NCBI GenBank assembly: GCA_951406725.2
Contig: OX597825.1
Span: 6,014,001-6,078,000 of the forward strand
Length of the DNA: 64,000 bases
Source: Octopus vulgaris
Lineage: Eukaryota
Direction of reading: 5' to 3'
Shown here: positions 33,062 to 35,978 of the stretch, piece by piece
How the letters are laid out: each line of letters begins with the position of its first letter
Numbering within the stretch: position 1 is the stretch's first letter
Made by a program: the position numbers

Positions 33062-35978
33062 ATATATATATGTTTGGCTCAACCAGCGTGAGTTTCTCTA
33101 CATTTCCATGACTTAGCAGTTTGGCAAAAAAGAAACTGATAGAATATGTATCAGATTTGAAACAAGAACTGGAGCAGTGGCACCATGATCAAAATCCAAA
33201 GACTGAAACGAACAGAAGCATAAAAGAATATGAGACTCTGTCGGGGAAAAGTTAGTTCCATCCACAATCTTGCTTGGATTCACCTGTTCTCGGTGTTTAG
33301 ACGTGGCGACGCTATTAAGAAATTAACTTCTTGACCAGATGGTCTCAGGTTCGGTTCTACTAAGGAGGTGAGCTGGCAGAATTATTAGCACGCCGGACGA
33401 AATGCTCAGCTGTATTTCGTCTGCCGTTGCGTTCTGAGTTCAAATTTTGCCGAGGTCGACTTTGCCTTTCATCCTTTCGGGGTCGATAAATTAAGTACCA
33501 GTTACGCACTGGGGTCGATTTTAGCCCCTTGTGGGCAGTAAAGAAATAGGTTCAGTTCTACTGCACAGTATTTTAAGCAAGTGTCTCCAACAGTATTCCT
33601 GCATTAACCTAGAGTAATTTAAGTCAATCTGGAAGACAGAAACTGTATGAAGCCTATTGTATGTGTGTGTTGAATCATCGTCGTCGTTGTCATTATCATC
33701 ATAACCATTTAATGTTTGTCTTCTATGCTAGATGGGTTGAAACAGTCTGACAGGATCCAAAGAAGAGCTGGAGGACAGCATCCCACTCCAATGCCTGCTT
33801 TGGTATGATTTCTGTGGCTGGATATTCGGGACTAATGCAGTTTCGCACCTCTCCTCGAAAAATGCATTTATTTCGAAAAGATATTTTTCAGATTCCTGTT
33901 TTATATGTCGGAGATTACAAATATACAAAAAAAAAATTTTTTTCGTGTGGATTTAATTTCGATTTAATTACGATTTGCATATGTTAGTCAGTTCACTATG
34001 ATCTCTTTAAAGTAAACAAAATCAAAATTTTTAGGTGGGGGTAAAATTTTGAAAATTTCTTTTTTTGCATATTCGTTTGTAATCTACAATATCTAAAACG
34101 TAAGAATCAGAAAATTTTTTTTTTTTTAAAAGTGCATTTTTCAAGGAGAGGTGGGTTGTCAACTAAAGGTGACGCTCTTATAGAAGACTGTGTTGCTGTT
34201 GTTTTTAGCCTCAGGAAGACATTCAGGTCTATCTCTTTATACACCTATCTATATATTGAATTTAAAATTTAGAAAACTTGGTTTCTTGCATATCTGGAAT
34301 CTCCATCATCTAAAACACAGCGGAAAAAATATTTCGAAAAAGTTCTAAATTTCAGGGTGGGGGTTGGAGGGGAGTTGAATTTTTTTTTTTTTTTTTTTTC
34401 ATATTCATAATCTCTAACATCTAACGTAGGAATCTGCAAAAAAAACTTTTCAAAAAAATGCATTTTTCAAAGAGAGGTGCAAAGCTGCATTAGCCCCGGA
34501 TATTCTTTCCGACTTTACGGAAGGTACAGGATACTTGTTTTTATTTTATTTTTTTCATAGTACCATCACTGGTGAAGTTTCCAAGTAACTTGGAAGACAA
34601 GGAAAAAGTCCCTTTGATTGAGTAGAACTGTGGTAAAGAAAGAGTTCACTTTATGCTACATGTCGAGAGGGACAGCCACATGGACATCCAGTTGTAAAAA
34701 GCATGCCAAAACATACATGAAAATATATCTGGAAATGAGGAAAAATTATCTCTATTGGAAACAGGTGAGTGAGTGTAAATGACAGGAAAGGTATCTCATC
34801 ATCATCATCATCGTTTAACGTCCATTTTCCATGCTAACACGGGTTGGACGGTTCGACCGGGGTCGGGAAGCTGGGAGGCTGCACCCACCAGGCTCCAGTC
34901 TGATCTGGCAGTGTTTCTACAGCTGGATGCCCTTCCTAACGCCAACCACTCCGTGAGTGTAGTGGGTGCTTTTTACGTGCCAGGGGAGGCTGGCAGTGGC
35001 CATGATCGGTTGGTGCTTTTTACATGCCACCGGCACGGAGGCGAGTTGAGGCGGCACTGGCAGCGACCACATTTGGATGGTTCTTTTACATGCCACCAGC
35101 ACTGGTATCACAACTGCAATTTCCATTGATTTTTGATCTGCTTCAACAAATTCTGTGTCACCCATCCAAGCATGGAAAAGTAAATGCCAAAATGATGATG
35201 ATGATGATGATGATGAAGATGATGATGAAATAGAAGAAAATGTGAAAAGCAGAAAACATTTAGTTTGATGTTCAATGAAGCATTTATTAGAAGTCTCAAT
35301 GGATAATTTTAATATGGAATAATTTCCTTGCATATAATATCAATTTTAGTCATAAACAAAATGATTTTTGCTGTTGTTTTTTGGTGTTTTTTCTACATGT
35401 CCAGAAGAATCTCAGAAACTTGGTTGTCTAATGGCACTCTTTGCCACAAACTTTTAGTGAAACATGCGCTATCTTCCAGTTGTTTGCTGACGAAAGATCC
35501 CTGAGCAAATCAAACTTCTGTTCGAAAAGTCCCAAGACATGATCCCCTTTGTGAACCGTACCGCGAACCAGAACACACACAATACCAAAACTCTCACCTT
35601 GACTCGTAACACCACCACCGGTGATGTTGGCATTGAAATGCAAGTTCTCTTTGCTCACTAATCTTTTTAGTCTACATGCAACCAGATCAGCACCCTCTGT
35701 CCTTTCTTCGTCTATCCCTTCAGATATCAACAGTAAATGTAAGGAACATCGGGGCCAAAACTAATCTTTCAAACCAGATTCAGTTCCTGAGTTAAACAAT
35801 TTATAAAACCAAGATGCAAAAGTTTCGCCAAATTTCACATCACTAATAGAAAGAAGGCGGGTTTCTGGTTCTGCCTAGAAATAAAAACAAAAAGAGAAAT
35901 ATCAAGAGAAATATCAGGGTGTATAGACTGGATAAGACAGTGCATATAGTCAGAGTGAGTCAGTGTATAGGATGAGAC

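What the first reader, a model, noticed from the sequence alone, without database searches (positions are those of the whole stretch)
35455..35600. Substitutions fall on alternate residues of a predicted beta-strand, suggesting one variable binding face
Copy A has IVCVLVRGTVH and copy B has IVSVTVHGRVH (49405-49435). Positions 3, 5, 7 and 9 change while the intervening V, V, G, V are fixed; the recalled human sequence is LVMVGVAGTVH. Nearby changes include GLF/GDF, the loop DLSSAN/DPTLGI, AHV/TCA and the conserved W replaced by K. Period-2 variation implies a single sheet face. The domain pattern (F..WFY..LN, GTV, FEQ.F.L, WKI) looks NTF2-like, which is inference. The varied face could be a ligand pocket or partner interface under diversification.
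Basis: partly seen in the sequence, partly recalled or inferred. Interest (0 to 1): 0.75.

Follow-up and report, generated by a model that had tools for sequence, protein, structure and literature searches.

The report
Fast-diverging octopus NTF2-like gene copies
Two neighbouring copies of an octopus gene of unknown function (a C3orf38 homologue with an NTF2-like domain) differ mostly by amino-acid-changing mutations, including on one side of a beta-strand, but both copies also carry reading-frame damage, so this looks like a young, fast-evolving and partly decaying gene cluster and not a proven variable binding face.

Summary
The window is Octopus vulgaris, not human. The finding lies in exon 3 (minus strand) of two members of a tandem array of 14-15 kb units. 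These encode C3orf38 homologues (Pfam DUF4518). The two peptides and all listed differences are real. An AlphaFold model (pLDDT 89.6) makes residues 98-109 a beta-strand of an NTF2-like fold, and Foldseek confirms the fold.

The alternating pattern alone is borderline (P about 0.05). All 5 variable residues of that hairpin fall on even positions (P 0.02-0.04). I infer these lie on the convex, dimer-type face and not in the pocket.

The larger signal is a roughly 490-bp island of divergence over exon 3. It holds 31 differences in 423 nt, against 0 of 182 and 0 of 150 in the adjacent DNA. There are 27 non-synonymous and 3 synonymous changes, and omega is about 3 (p 0.02-0.03).

Copy A has an in-frame TAG. 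Copy B has a 1-bp deletion after its ATG and a 5-bp frameshift at its 3' end. Copy B has also lost the near-invariant W and T.

Best reading: accelerated post-duplication divergence in a birth-and-death array with gene conversion. A single selected binding face is not shown. No coordinates were available for a 3-D test.

The parts
35428..35874 (-). Copy A, exon 3 (NTF2-like domain exon), from the splice acceptor ...tttctag|GCAGAACC to the normal stop at 35428-35430
   Evidence: ORFs; Pfam DUF4518 E 7.4e-26; tblastn with P0001; coordinates
35761..35763 (-). Premature in-frame TAG in copy A (codon 38 of exon 3; copy B, paralogue C and P0002 have Gln, the wider family has His)
   Evidence: The annotated product P0153 (153 aa) ends here. 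The O. sinensis protein P0154 (153 aa) ends at the same ...GLKD
35551..35583 (-). Copy A strand peptide IVCVLVRGTVH (residues 98-108 of the exon-3 product)
   Evidence: The AlphaFold model of copy B has a strand at E98-109
37584..37807 (-). Copy A, exon 2 (second part of the N-terminal helical domain)
41163..41286 (-). Copy A, exon 1 from the ATG (MNFTGAEKKGCRNLL...), reading frame intact
49245..49721 (-). Copy B, exon 3. The 158-codon frame is open, but with W22K, T106R, L116D, N131I and a frameshifted C-terminal tail
   Evidence: (DUF4518 E 4e-29)
49398..49430 (-). Copy B strand peptide IVSVTVHGRVH
49292..49296 (-). Site of the 5-bp deletion (with adjacent substitutions) in copy B. It replaces the ancestral C-terminus K[VI]C[AG]K... 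with ...KVARVPLDNQDSEMLVDE
52477..52700 (-). Copy B, exon 2 (5 differences from copy A, all non-synonymous)
55815..55934 (-). Copy B, exon 1. A 1-bp deletion in the A-run at 55909-55913 shifts the frame after MNFTEAEK. The other frame has no ATG after an upstream TGA
   Evidence: The database model P0001 gets round this by fusing copy B to the upstream paralogue C
35355..35847 (.). Island of high divergence between units 1 and 2 (counterpart in unit 2 about 49205-49694), bounded by perfectly identical DNA
   Evidence: 0 of 182 differences in intron 2, 0 of 150 at 35200-35349. Searches give the wider comparison
30304..64000 (.). Tandem array of 14-15 kb units: unit 1 at 30304-44046, unit 2 at 44047-59036, unit 3 from 59037 and running off the window. 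Units are 92-97% identical and mosaic in their relationships
   Evidence: Self-BLAST; repeat families D9-D20; three-unit comparison

Best explanation
The finding is in the NTF2-like-domain exon of two adjacent members of a young tandem array of C3orf38-homologue (DUF4518) genes in Octopus vulgaris.

After duplication, the array copies (A, B and the off-window C) diverged by accelerated amino-acid replacement. This replacement is concentrated in a ~0.5-kb island over exon 3. Gene conversion or unequal exchange kept the surrounding introns and flanks almost identical.

The alternate-residue pattern follows from strand geometry. The odd-position valines (99, 101, 103, 107) pack with F117, Q119 and F121 in the core under the helices and are held fixed by folding. 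The even-position side chains (100, 102, 104, 106, plus 116 across the hairpin) point to the other, convex sheet face and were free, or selected, to change.

The array behaves as a birth-and-death family. Copy A is cut by a TAG into an N-domain-only product. Copy B has two frameshifting indels and has lost near-invariant residues, so it is probably a dying or radically re-purposed copy.

Shown: gene identity, fold, strand, the lesions, the island, and the excess of non-synonymous changes. Inferred: which face is convex, that selection and not chance shaped the changes, and any function.
For: Identity:
- Copy B's exon 3 is 100% identical to O. vulgaris protein P0001.
- It matches Pfam DUF4518 at 102 bits against a cut-off of 27.
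- The family has 285 representatives at E<=1e-3.

Fold:
- The AlphaFold model has pLDDT 89.6 and pTM 0.82, with strand E98-109.
- Foldseek best matches are Bre5, NXF1/NXT1, G3BP1 and NTF2, at E 3e-7 to 5e-6 and TM to target up to 0.86.
- The 18 best of 21 profile-to-PDB hits are NTF2-fold proteins.

Array and mosaic:
- The tandem units are shown.
- Unit 1 is the outlier up to about 32.1 kb. Unit 2 is the outlier from 32.7 kb (60 unit-2-unique, 11 unit-1-unique and 9 unit-3-unique sites in about 2 kb).

Island:
- Exon 3 differs at 31 of 423 nt. The 3' flank differs at 65 of 1845 (OR 2.2, p 0.0011). All listed non-coding DNA differs at 140 of 5539 (p 8.5e-7).
- Adjacent DNA shows 0 of 182 and 0 of 150 differences.
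- Only 2 regions among 177 sliding windows reach 31 or more differences.

Replacement excess:
- Exon 3 has Nd 27 and Sd 3. All three exons, counted separately, give Nd 38 and Sd 5, with pN 0.066 and pS 0.030.
- Differences by codon position are 10/18/3, and P(third position <=3) is 0.002.
- ML omega is 3.2 for exon 3 (p 0.032) and 2.8 for all exons (p 0.018).

Faces:
- 5 of 5 variable hairpin residues are at even positions.
- Family entropy alternates along the strand: 3.29, 1.26, 3.12, 1.36 at residues 100-103.
- Even-sum covariation diagonals are higher than odd-sum ones.

Lineages:
- The tree is ((A,C)99,B)97, with P0002 on a branch of 0.009.
- Of the 24 variable sites, 10 are B-derived, 4 are (A,C)-derived, 2 are A-only, 1 is A-lineage and 7 are ambiguous.
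Against: - Both copies have ORF lesions, which fits decay better than function.
- The omega tests are only p 0.02-0.03 on 43 changes, with one pairwise comparison and no polymorphism data.
- The island runs about 70 nt past the ancestral stop, with about 10 differences there. Protein-level selection does not explain these, although part of that stretch is A-rich and part is B's new ORF extension.
- Variable sites are not enriched at family-variable columns (p 0.35), and three hit near-invariant residues.
- The face assignment rests on parity logic and a marginal HMM alignment (E 0.01), not on coordinates.
- If the window comes from the published O. vulgaris assembly (ONT R9.4.1 at 27.5x, polished with linked short reads; PMC10700109, passages), single-base indels and perfectly identical stretches inside a 95%-identical tandem repeat may be partly artefacts.
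Confidence: 0.5

Rival explanations
1. Neutral decay. A and B are pseudogenes, or B alone is. The replacements are unconstrained drift. The island is simply an older stretch that recent gene-conversion tracts happened not to homogenise. The period-2 pattern is chance.
For: - A has a TAG, and B has two frameshifting indels.
- B has lost W22 (W in 52 of 52 family rows) and T106 (T in 52 of 57). B puts Asp at position 116, where the three commonest residues in 57 family rows are V, I and L (47 of 57).
- Differences continue about 70 nt beyond the ancestral stop.
- Variable sites are not biased towards family-variable columns (p 0.35).
- The x.x.x.x pattern has P 0.049 and was found post hoc.
- The mosaic of the units shows that conversion or recombination is active.
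Against: - Neutral change should hit the three codon positions equally. The observed counts are 10/18/3 (P 0.002 for so few third-position changes).
- Only 3 synonymous changes are seen against about 8 expected at the observed ts:tv (P 0.016).
- Omega = 1 is rejected at p 0.018-0.032.
- dS (0.033) matches the flank (0.035), while dN is 0.088.
Confidence: 0.3
2. Diversifying selection acts on one binding face of the NTF2-like domain (a ligand pocket or a partner interface), so that the paralogues differ in what they bind.
For: - 5 of 5 variable hairpin residues lie on one parity (P 0.02-0.04).
- Residue 102 has three states among four O. vulgaris paralogues (L, T, V), and 104 has two states (R, H).
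- Using the HMM alignment, G3BP1 Thr85 maps to family position 94, which is A/B-variable. Thr85, Asn128 and Arg132 are named as the conserved dimer-forming side chains in PMC3852005 (section 13). Extending that alignment ungapped beyond its printed end (my extrapolation) places Asn128 at position 137 (A/B-variable) and Arg132 at 141 (not variable).
- Omega is above 1.
Against: - The face is inferred to be the convex one, so the ligand-pocket version is disfavoured.
- 17 of the 24 variable sites lie elsewhere: loops 53-55 and 127-131, positions 136 and 138 of the opposite parity, and helix residues.
- Three of the four strand changes are on the single branch of copy B, which is also the copy with two frameshifts.
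- No 3-D clustering test could be run.
Confidence: 0.15
3. Assembly or polishing artefact. Paralogous or allelic reads were mixed in a 95%-identical tandem repeat, creating chimeric copies, false indels and falsely identical flanks.
For: - The published O. vulgaris assembly used ONT R9.4.1 at 27.5x, polished with 10x linked short reads, followed by purge_dups (PMC10700109, passages).
- The exon-1 deletion of copy B lies in an A5 run.
- Stretches of 150-180 nt are perfectly identical beside the island.
Against: - The differences are mostly substitutions, with a strong codon-position bias that sequencing error would not produce.
- The same truncation point (...GLKD) appears in an independent O. 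sinensis protein.
- Several B states are shared with another O. vulgaris paralogue (P0002) and with O. bimaculoides.
- The 5-bp deletion is not in a homopolymer.
Confidence: 0.05

Closest known systems
C3orf38 homologues (Pfam PF15008, DUF4518), for example the intact 282-aa protein of Argonauta hians (P0004)
   Same: - Significant Pfam match.
- Same two-domain plan. The model of P0004 has an N-terminal helical domain (1-110), a disordered linker (111-140) and an NTF2-like domain (146-281).
- Same motifs: F..WFY, FN.N, G.V.V.V.GT.H, F.Q.F, RDP...NW.
   Different: - The genes here form a tandem array of at least 3 units in the window, and at least 4 paralogues are annotated on the chromosome.
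- The copies are only about 47% identical to the Argonauta domain.
- They carry a nonsense codon or frameshifts.
- They have replaced family-conserved residues. H38, D42, H96, C104 and K136 are already changed in the genus Octopus. Copy B has additionally lost W22 and T106.
NTF2-type domains of nuclear-transport and RNA-granule proteins (NTF2, NXF1/NXT1, G3BP1/2, Rasputin, Bre5)
   Same: - Same fold by Foldseek (E about 1e-6, rmsd 2.2-3.6 A, TM to target 0.73-0.86).
- They are the only coherent set of hits in the profile-to-PDB search.
- The G3BP1 paper describes three helices against a five-stranded sheet and a homodimer (PMC3852005, section 13).
   Different: - Sequence identity is only 13-19%.
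- No Pfam NTF2 or NXF_NTF2 match was listed at E<=10.
- Dimerisation of this family is untested.
- That NTF2 M84, M102 and M118 mark the dimer face is my recollection. Only the PDB entry titles (1jb2, 1jb4, 1jb5) come.
Drosophila Ntf-2r and Ran-like duplicates of nuclear-transport genes
   Same: Duplicated NTF2-fold genes that evolve fast, with reported positive selection in some lineages, interpreted as a response to germline genetic conflict (PMC8645118, passages).
   Different: - Those are mostly retrogenes at new locations, judged functional and testis-biased.
- The octopus copies are DNA-level tandem duplicates that keep their introns.
- They belong to a different NTF2-like family.
- Their expression is unknown and their reading frames are damaged.
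Tandem arrays with 'accelerated evolution' of exons, for example habu small-serum-protein genes and snake-venom PLA2 genes
   Same: Neighbouring young duplicates with KA/KS above 1 (1.5-1.7) while intron divergence is low (0.05-0.065) (PMC6609765, passages). Here omega is about 3 and intron divergence is 0-3%.
   Different: - Those are secreted proteins with known targets and intact genes.
- The protein here is a predicted intracellular two-domain protein of unknown function, in copies with broken frames.
- This is a resemblance of evolutionary pattern only, not of family.

Membership tests
Pfam DUF4518 / C3orf38 homologue | Match to PF15008 above the gathering score | tested here: met
   Copy B exon 3 scores 102.1 bits (cut-off 27), profile 132-268 of 271. 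The copy A piece scores 91.4 bits. P0153, the annotated copy A product, covers profile 2-148.
Pfam DUF4518 / C3orf38 homologue | Near-invariant family residues. There are 18 such columns in alignment A1: G105, G115, W22, N28, F39, F80, N81, N83, G88, G97, T106, H108, F117, Q119, F121, L123, P127, W133 | tested here: inconclusive
   Copy A keeps 17 of 18 (P127 is L). Copy B keeps 16 of 18 (W22 is K, T106 is R).
Pfam DUF4518 / C3orf38 homologue | One uninterrupted reading frame across the three coding exons, as in Argonauta P0004 | tested here: not met
   Copy A has a TAG at 35761-35763. Copy B has a 1-bp deletion at 55909-55913 and a 5-bp deletion near 49292-49296.
NTF2-like fold superfamily | Alpha+beta cone: N-terminal helices packed on a curved antiparallel sheet, with structural similarity to solved NTF2-fold proteins | tested here: met
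   The model has H10-29, H32-36, H62-74 and strands 39-50, 54-60, 79-82, 89-93, 98-109, 112-125, 133-144. Foldseek gives E 2.9e-7 and TM to target up to 0.86 against NTF2.
Pfam NTF2 (PF02136) / NXF_NTF2 (PF22602) | Sequence match to those models | tested here: not met
   hmmscan at E<=10 lists only DUF4518 for P0002 and P0004. The Atlas feature search gives NXF/NTF2 clusters at 0.86-0.90, which counts as a lead only.
NTF2-type homodimer or heterodimer through the convex sheet face | Dimer formed by the outer face of the sheet | not testable with these tools
   No coordinates or contacts were available. The interface residues of G3BP1 come from PMC3852005 and were mapped through a marginal alignment.
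SAP domain (N-terminal half) | Match to PF02037 above the cut-off | tested here: not met
   P0153 scores 15.1 bits against a cut-off of 23.9 (E 0.019). One source names the protein 'SAP domain-containing'.
Gene family under diversifying selection | dN/dS above 1 and coding divergence above neutral flank divergence | tested here: met
   Omega is 3.2 (p 0.032) for exon 3 and 2.8 (p 0.018) for all exons. Non-synonymous sites show 28 of 326 changes, against 68 of 1939 at neutral sites (p 1.4e-4). This is a single pairwise comparison.
Gene family under diversifying selection | The same sites change repeatedly across many functional paralogues or alleles | not tested
   Only four O. vulgaris paralogues were seen, two of them as protein only.

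The most novel reading that the evidence does not exclude
Octopus has amplified its C3orf38 homologue into a tandem family. Positive selection reshapes the NTF2-type dimer or partner face (residues 94, 100, 102, 104, 106, 116, 137) and neighbouring loops. The array also produces N-domain-only (TAG-truncated, conserved in O. sinensis) and NTF2-only forms. The result would be a set of paralogues with altered pairing or partner specificity, or dominant-negative decoys. Such a set could plausibly be engaged in a genetic conflict (transposons, viruses, germline drive), as proposed for duplicated NTF2-fold transport genes in flies.
Probability: 0.12. Interest if true: 0.6.

Novelty: new member of a known kind. 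Interest (0 to 1): 0.35.

Why it matters
C3orf38/DUF4518 is a widespread animal protein with no known function. One paper lists it among the most understudied selectively essential human genes (PMC9576728, one passage). The held library has no paper containing the term DUF4518.

A lineage in which the gene is tandemly amplified, and in which replacements cluster on the outer sheet face and nearby loops of its NTF2-like domain, points to where the protein may contact partners. That makes the idea testable with dimerisation and pull-down assays of natural variants.

It is also a clean small example of an exon island of replacement changes inside a conversion-homogenised array. The value is limited by the broken reading frames and by reliance on one assembly.

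Tried and rejected
- Complex prediction. Two copies of the intact O. vulgaris paralogue P0002 were submitted. The verdict was 'no answer' (score 0.00, the alignment was not used, controls were not run). This is no evidence either way.
- RNA editing rescue of copy A's TAG. The 146-nt stretches around the codon fold no better than shuffles (z 0.07 for A, 0.31 for B), so there is no local support. Distant pairing was not tested.
- Covariation to fix the hairpin register. Among 149 family sequences the signal is weak. Even sums 220 and 222 score 0.051 and 0.034, against 0.019 for odd sum 221. I use it only as a minor support.
- Profile search of solved structures with the full-length alignment A1. 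It gave only 14-3-3 noise on the N-terminal part (E 0.05). The domain-only alignment A2 was needed.
- Secondary-structure class. Variable residues number 3 of 38 in helices, 13 of 63 in strands and 8 of 40 in loops (chi-square p 0.21). This is not informative.
- CpG transitions as an explanation. I rejected this by reading the codon list: only 2-3 of the 31 changes fit.
- A distant paralogue as conversion donor. I rejected this because such a donor should bring many synonymous differences, and only 3 are seen.
- Literature: a search for NTF2 plus M84E found 0 papers. The C3orf38 search found 56 papers; I saw the listing of 20, and none concerned cephalopods, structure or mechanism. The search listed 8 of 22 papers, none on this family.
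- Not consulted: supplements of the O. vulgaris genome paper, which may hold consensus quality values and annotation evidence that bear on the indels and the fused gene model.
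Full report
**What is there**

The window is octopus DNA, not human. The 158-codon open frame at 49245-49721 (minus strand) is 100% identical to the C-terminal part of an Octopus vulgaris predicted protein, P0001 (624 aa). P0001 lies on an 89.6-Mb contig and was the 1 hit among 487 candidates.

- Copy A is at 35428-35874.
- Copy B is at 49245-49721.
- Each is preceded by the same acceptor...tttctag|GCAGAACC.

Pfam assigns both to DUF4518 (PF15008), the C3orf38 family. 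Copy B scores 102 bits and the copy A piece 91 bits, against a cut-off of 27.

Mapping P0001 back on the window gives three coding exons per gene:
- Copy A: 41163-41286, 37584-37807, 35428-35874.
- Copy B: 55815-55934, 52477-52700, 49245-49721.

I compared and searched the exons one by one. I did not build, search or fold a joined coding sequence. The spliced proteins I used are the annotators' own database entries.

**The array**

Self-comparison shows a tandem array of 14-15 kb units from 30304 to the end of the window. Unit 1 is 30304-44046, unit 2 is 44047-59036, and unit 3 starts at 59037. Units are 92-97% identical.

P0001 is a fused gene model. Its residues 92-346 are a third paralogue, C, whose exons lie beyond position 64000. 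Its residues 347-624 are copy B.

Named relatives (5 hits among 38 candidates):
- P0002, a fourth O. vulgaris paralogue on the same contig (164 aa, exon-3 part intact).
- P0153, which is copy A as annotated (153 aa).
- P0154, an O. sinensis 'C3orf38 homolog', also 153 aa.
- Two models of one O. bimaculoides gene.

P0004 is the intact 282-aa homologue of Argonauta hians.

The relationships of the units are mosaic. Up to about 32.1 kb, unit 1 is the odd one out. From 32.7 kb, unit 2 is (60 unit-2-unique, 11 unit-1-unique and 9 unit-3-unique sites in about 2 kb). So exchange between units has occurred.

**Check of the observation**

The peptides IVCVLVRGTVH (A, 35551-35583) and IVSVTVHGRVH (B, 49398-49430) are correct. 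So are GLF/GDF, DLSSAN/DPTLGI, AHV/TCA and W/K.

Over the 141 ungapped codons, 24 residues differ. An x.x.x.x run arises in 4.9% of 50,000 random placements, so the pattern alone is borderline.

Variable codons are clustered along the sequence: 9 adjacent pairs against 3.9 expected (P 0.005).

The consensus of 57 family rows at this strand is G-L-V-x-V-x-V-C-G-T-x-H.

Copy A:
- It has an in-frame TAG at 35761-35763, where B, C and P0002 have Gln.
- Its annotated product stops there. The O. sinensis protein ends at the same ...GLKD.

Copy B:
- It has a 1-bp deletion in an A-run (55909-55913) eight codons after its ATG, so the canonical frame reads MNFTEAEKKIAVIY*. The other frame has no ATG after an upstream TGA, as I read it from the sequence.
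- It has a 5-bp deletion near 49292-49296 that replaces the ancestral C-terminus.
- It has lost two of the 18 near-invariant family residues: W22 (W in 52 of 52 rows) and T106 (T in 52 of 57).
- It has Asp at position 116, where the commonest residues are V, I and L (47 of 57 rows). It has Ile at position 131, where 43 of 57 rows have Asn.

Copy A also has Leu at position 127, where 53 of 57 rows have Pro.

**Fold and strand**

An AlphaFold2 model of copy B's exon-3 product, built with 60 family sequences, has mean pLDDT 89.6 and pTM 0.82. Its elements are H10-29, H32-36, E39-50, E54-60, H62-74, E79-82, E89-93, E98-109, E112-125 and E133-144. The segment is therefore a confidently modelled beta-strand.

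Foldseek against the PDB gives NTF2-fold proteins as best matches. They include Bre5 (E 2.9e-7), NXF1/NXT1, G3BP1 and rat NTF2 (rmsd 2.2-2.7 A, TM to target 0.84-0.86).

A domain-only family profile finds NTF2-fold chains as its 18 best of 21 PDB hits (G3BP1 at E 0.0099). The match is colinear over the whole domain.

The full-length Argonauta protein models as a helical N-terminal domain (1-110), a disordered linker (111-140) and the NTF2-like domain (146-281). Its pTM is 0.54, which indicates two independent domains. A TAG-truncated 153-aa product would therefore still contain a complete N-terminal domain.

**Which face?**

No coordinates are exposed to scripts. The proposed 3-D permutation test could not be run, and the face assignment is inference. 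Five points bear on it:
- In the family, every position from 98 to 104 is hydrophobic, but entropy alternates: 3.29, 1.26, 3.12, 1.36 at residues 100-103.
- The most conserved residues of the two hairpin strands are at odd positions: V101, V103 and V107, with F117, Q119, F121 and L123. They can share the core face only if the pairing sum is even. Even-sum covariation diagonals are slightly higher than odd-sum ones.
- On that reading, residues 100, 102, 104, 106 and 116 lie on the other, convex face. All 5 variable residues of the 26-residue hairpin are at even positions (P 0.0196 for that face, about 0.04 for either).
- Through the HMM alignment, G3BP1 Thr85 falls on position 94, which is A/B-variable. 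Thr85, Asn128 and Arg132 are the conserved side chains that form the G3BP1/NTF2 dimer (PMC3852005, section 13). Extending the alignment ungapped beyond its printed end puts Asn128 on position 137 (A/B-variable) and Arg132 on 141.
- That NTF2 M84, M102 and M118 mark the same dimer face is my recollection.

So the variable side of the strand is most likely the NTF2-type dimer or partner surface, not the pocket. However, 17 of the 24 variable sites lie elsewhere: loops 53-55 and 127-131, residues 136 and 138, helix residue 22, and others.

**The stronger signal**

Divergence between units 1 and 2, in substitutions per aligned base:

| Region | Differences | Fraction |
|---|---|---|
| 3' flank | 65 of 1845 | 3.5% |
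| Intron 2, proximal | 0 of 157 | 0% |
| Intron 2, distal | 18 of 1475 | 1.2% |
| Exon 2 | 5 of 228 | 2.2% |
| Intron 1 (two stretches) | 16 of 561 and 41 of 1501 | 2.7-2.9% |
| Exon 3 | 31 of 423 | 7.3% |

- Exon 3 against the 3' flank gives OR 2.2 (p 0.0011). Against all non-coding DNA, p is 8.5e-7.
- At 50-nt resolution, the divergence is an island at about 35355-35847. It is bounded by 0 of 182 and 0 of 150 differences.
- Among 177 sliding windows, only the exon 3 area and the repeat-rich exon 1 area reach 31 or more differences.
- Exon 3 has 27 non-synonymous and 3 synonymous differences, plus the stop. The three exons counted separately give 38 and 5, with pN 0.066 and pS 0.030.
- Differences by codon position are 10/18/3. 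P(3 or fewer at third positions) is 0.002. P(3 or fewer synonymous) is 0.016 at the observed ts:tv, and ranges from 0.007 to 0.057 over other weights.
- A pairwise codon-model likelihood test gives omega 3.2 (p 0.032) for exon 3 and 2.8 (p 0.018) for all exons as partitions.

Results that count against selection:
- The island extends about 70 nt past the ancestral stop, with about 10 differences there.
- Variable sites are not enriched at family-variable columns (p 0.35).
- The tests rest on one sequence pair.

**Lineages**

A 14-sequence tree gives ((A,C)99,B)97. P0002 sits on a branch of 0.009 and the O. bimaculoides fragment on a branch of about 0. The (A,C) stem is 0.088 long and the B branch 0.105.

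The 24 A/B differences were polarised with P0002 and O. bimaculoides:
- 10 are B-derived.
- 4 are (A,C)-derived.
- 2 are A-only (the stop and L127).
- 1 is A-lineage.
- 7 are ambiguous.

In the strand, residues 100, 102 and 106 changed on the B branch and residue 104 on the (A,C) stem.

P0002 thus looks like the conservative copy. The units in this window are the fast ones.

**Interpretation**

The best reading (confidence about 0.5) is accelerated post-duplication divergence in a birth-and-death tandem family, with gene conversion homogenising the non-coding DNA. The alternating pattern is the expected imprint of a strand whose core side is fixed by folding.

Rivals:
- Neutral decay of pseudogenes, with a conversion boundary falling by chance (about 0.3).
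- Assembly or polishing artefact (about 0.05). The published assembly is ONT R9.4.1 at 27.5x, polished with linked short reads (PMC10700109, passages). I infer, but did not verify, that the window comes from it.

Comparable patterns are reported elsewhere:
- Habu serum-protein gene arrays show KA/KS of 1.5-1.7 with intron divergence of 0.05-0.065 (PMC6609765, passages).
- Duplicated NTF2-fold transport genes in Drosophila evolve fast (PMC8645118, passages).

**Left open**

This includes copy C, the P0002 locus and the other species.
- Supplements of the genome paper were not consulted.
- For print status: 'DUF4518' occurs in 0 papers of the held library. 'C3orf38' occurs in 56; I saw the listing of 20, and none concerned cephalopods or mechanism. 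The search listed 8 of 22 papers, none on this family.

Noticed in passing
window 35761-35763, with database proteins P0153 and P0154: The 153-aa truncation of copy A (ending ...GLKD at the TAG) has an exact counterpart in an O. sinensis 'C3orf38 homolog' of 153 aa. So an N-domain-only form is either shared between sister species or spread among paralogues.
   Followed up: partly
window 49245-55950, with P0001: The database model P0001 (624 aa) fuses paralogue C (off the window) to copy B through a junction inside C's exon 3 and a cryptic acceptor upstream of B's ATG. This by-passes B's frameshift. It is either an annotation artefact or a read-through transcript.
   Followed up: partly
window 2415-3499 (+): Remnants of a mariner/Mos1-type transposase in two separate frames: HTH_48 at E 2.2e-10, Transposase_1 at 3.1e-6, DDE_3 at 9.1e-5.
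   Followed up: partly
window 29203-29261 (+): An Rfam tRNA match (36.9 bits, gathering score 29) that ARAGORN does not call. It is probably a tRNA-derived repeat or a pseudo-tRNA.
   Followed up: no
window 41469-42006, 56118-56473, 10748-11101 and others (repeat family D6): Repeats of 171-185 nt, tandem at 183-185-nt spacing in several places, including directly upstream of exon 1 in units 1 and 2. The copy number differs between units. This, together with indels at the exon 1 / intron 1 border, makes the exon 1 area the most divergent stretch of the unit.
   Followed up: partly
window about 32100-32700: A switch in which unit is the outlier (unit 1 before, unit 2 after). This marks a recombination or gene-conversion breakpoint in the array.
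   Followed up: partly
window 3914-4327 vs 12546-12964; 16193-16590 vs 41457-41874; 57878-58260 vs 58548-58949: Inverted copies of dispersed repeats, 83-88% identical. In addition, very long AT-rich microsatellites lie at about 8.2-9.7 kb, 11.7-12.2 kb, 17.4-17.8 kb, 27.6-28.2 kb and 54.5-55.5 kb.
   Followed up: no
family alignment A1 (positions 38, 42, 96, 104, 106, 108 of the exon-3 product): The wider family conserves a set of polar residues: H38, D42, H96, C104, T106, H108. Octopods have largely replaced H38, D42, H96 and C104. This may mark a lost or changed site in this lineage.
   Followed up: no
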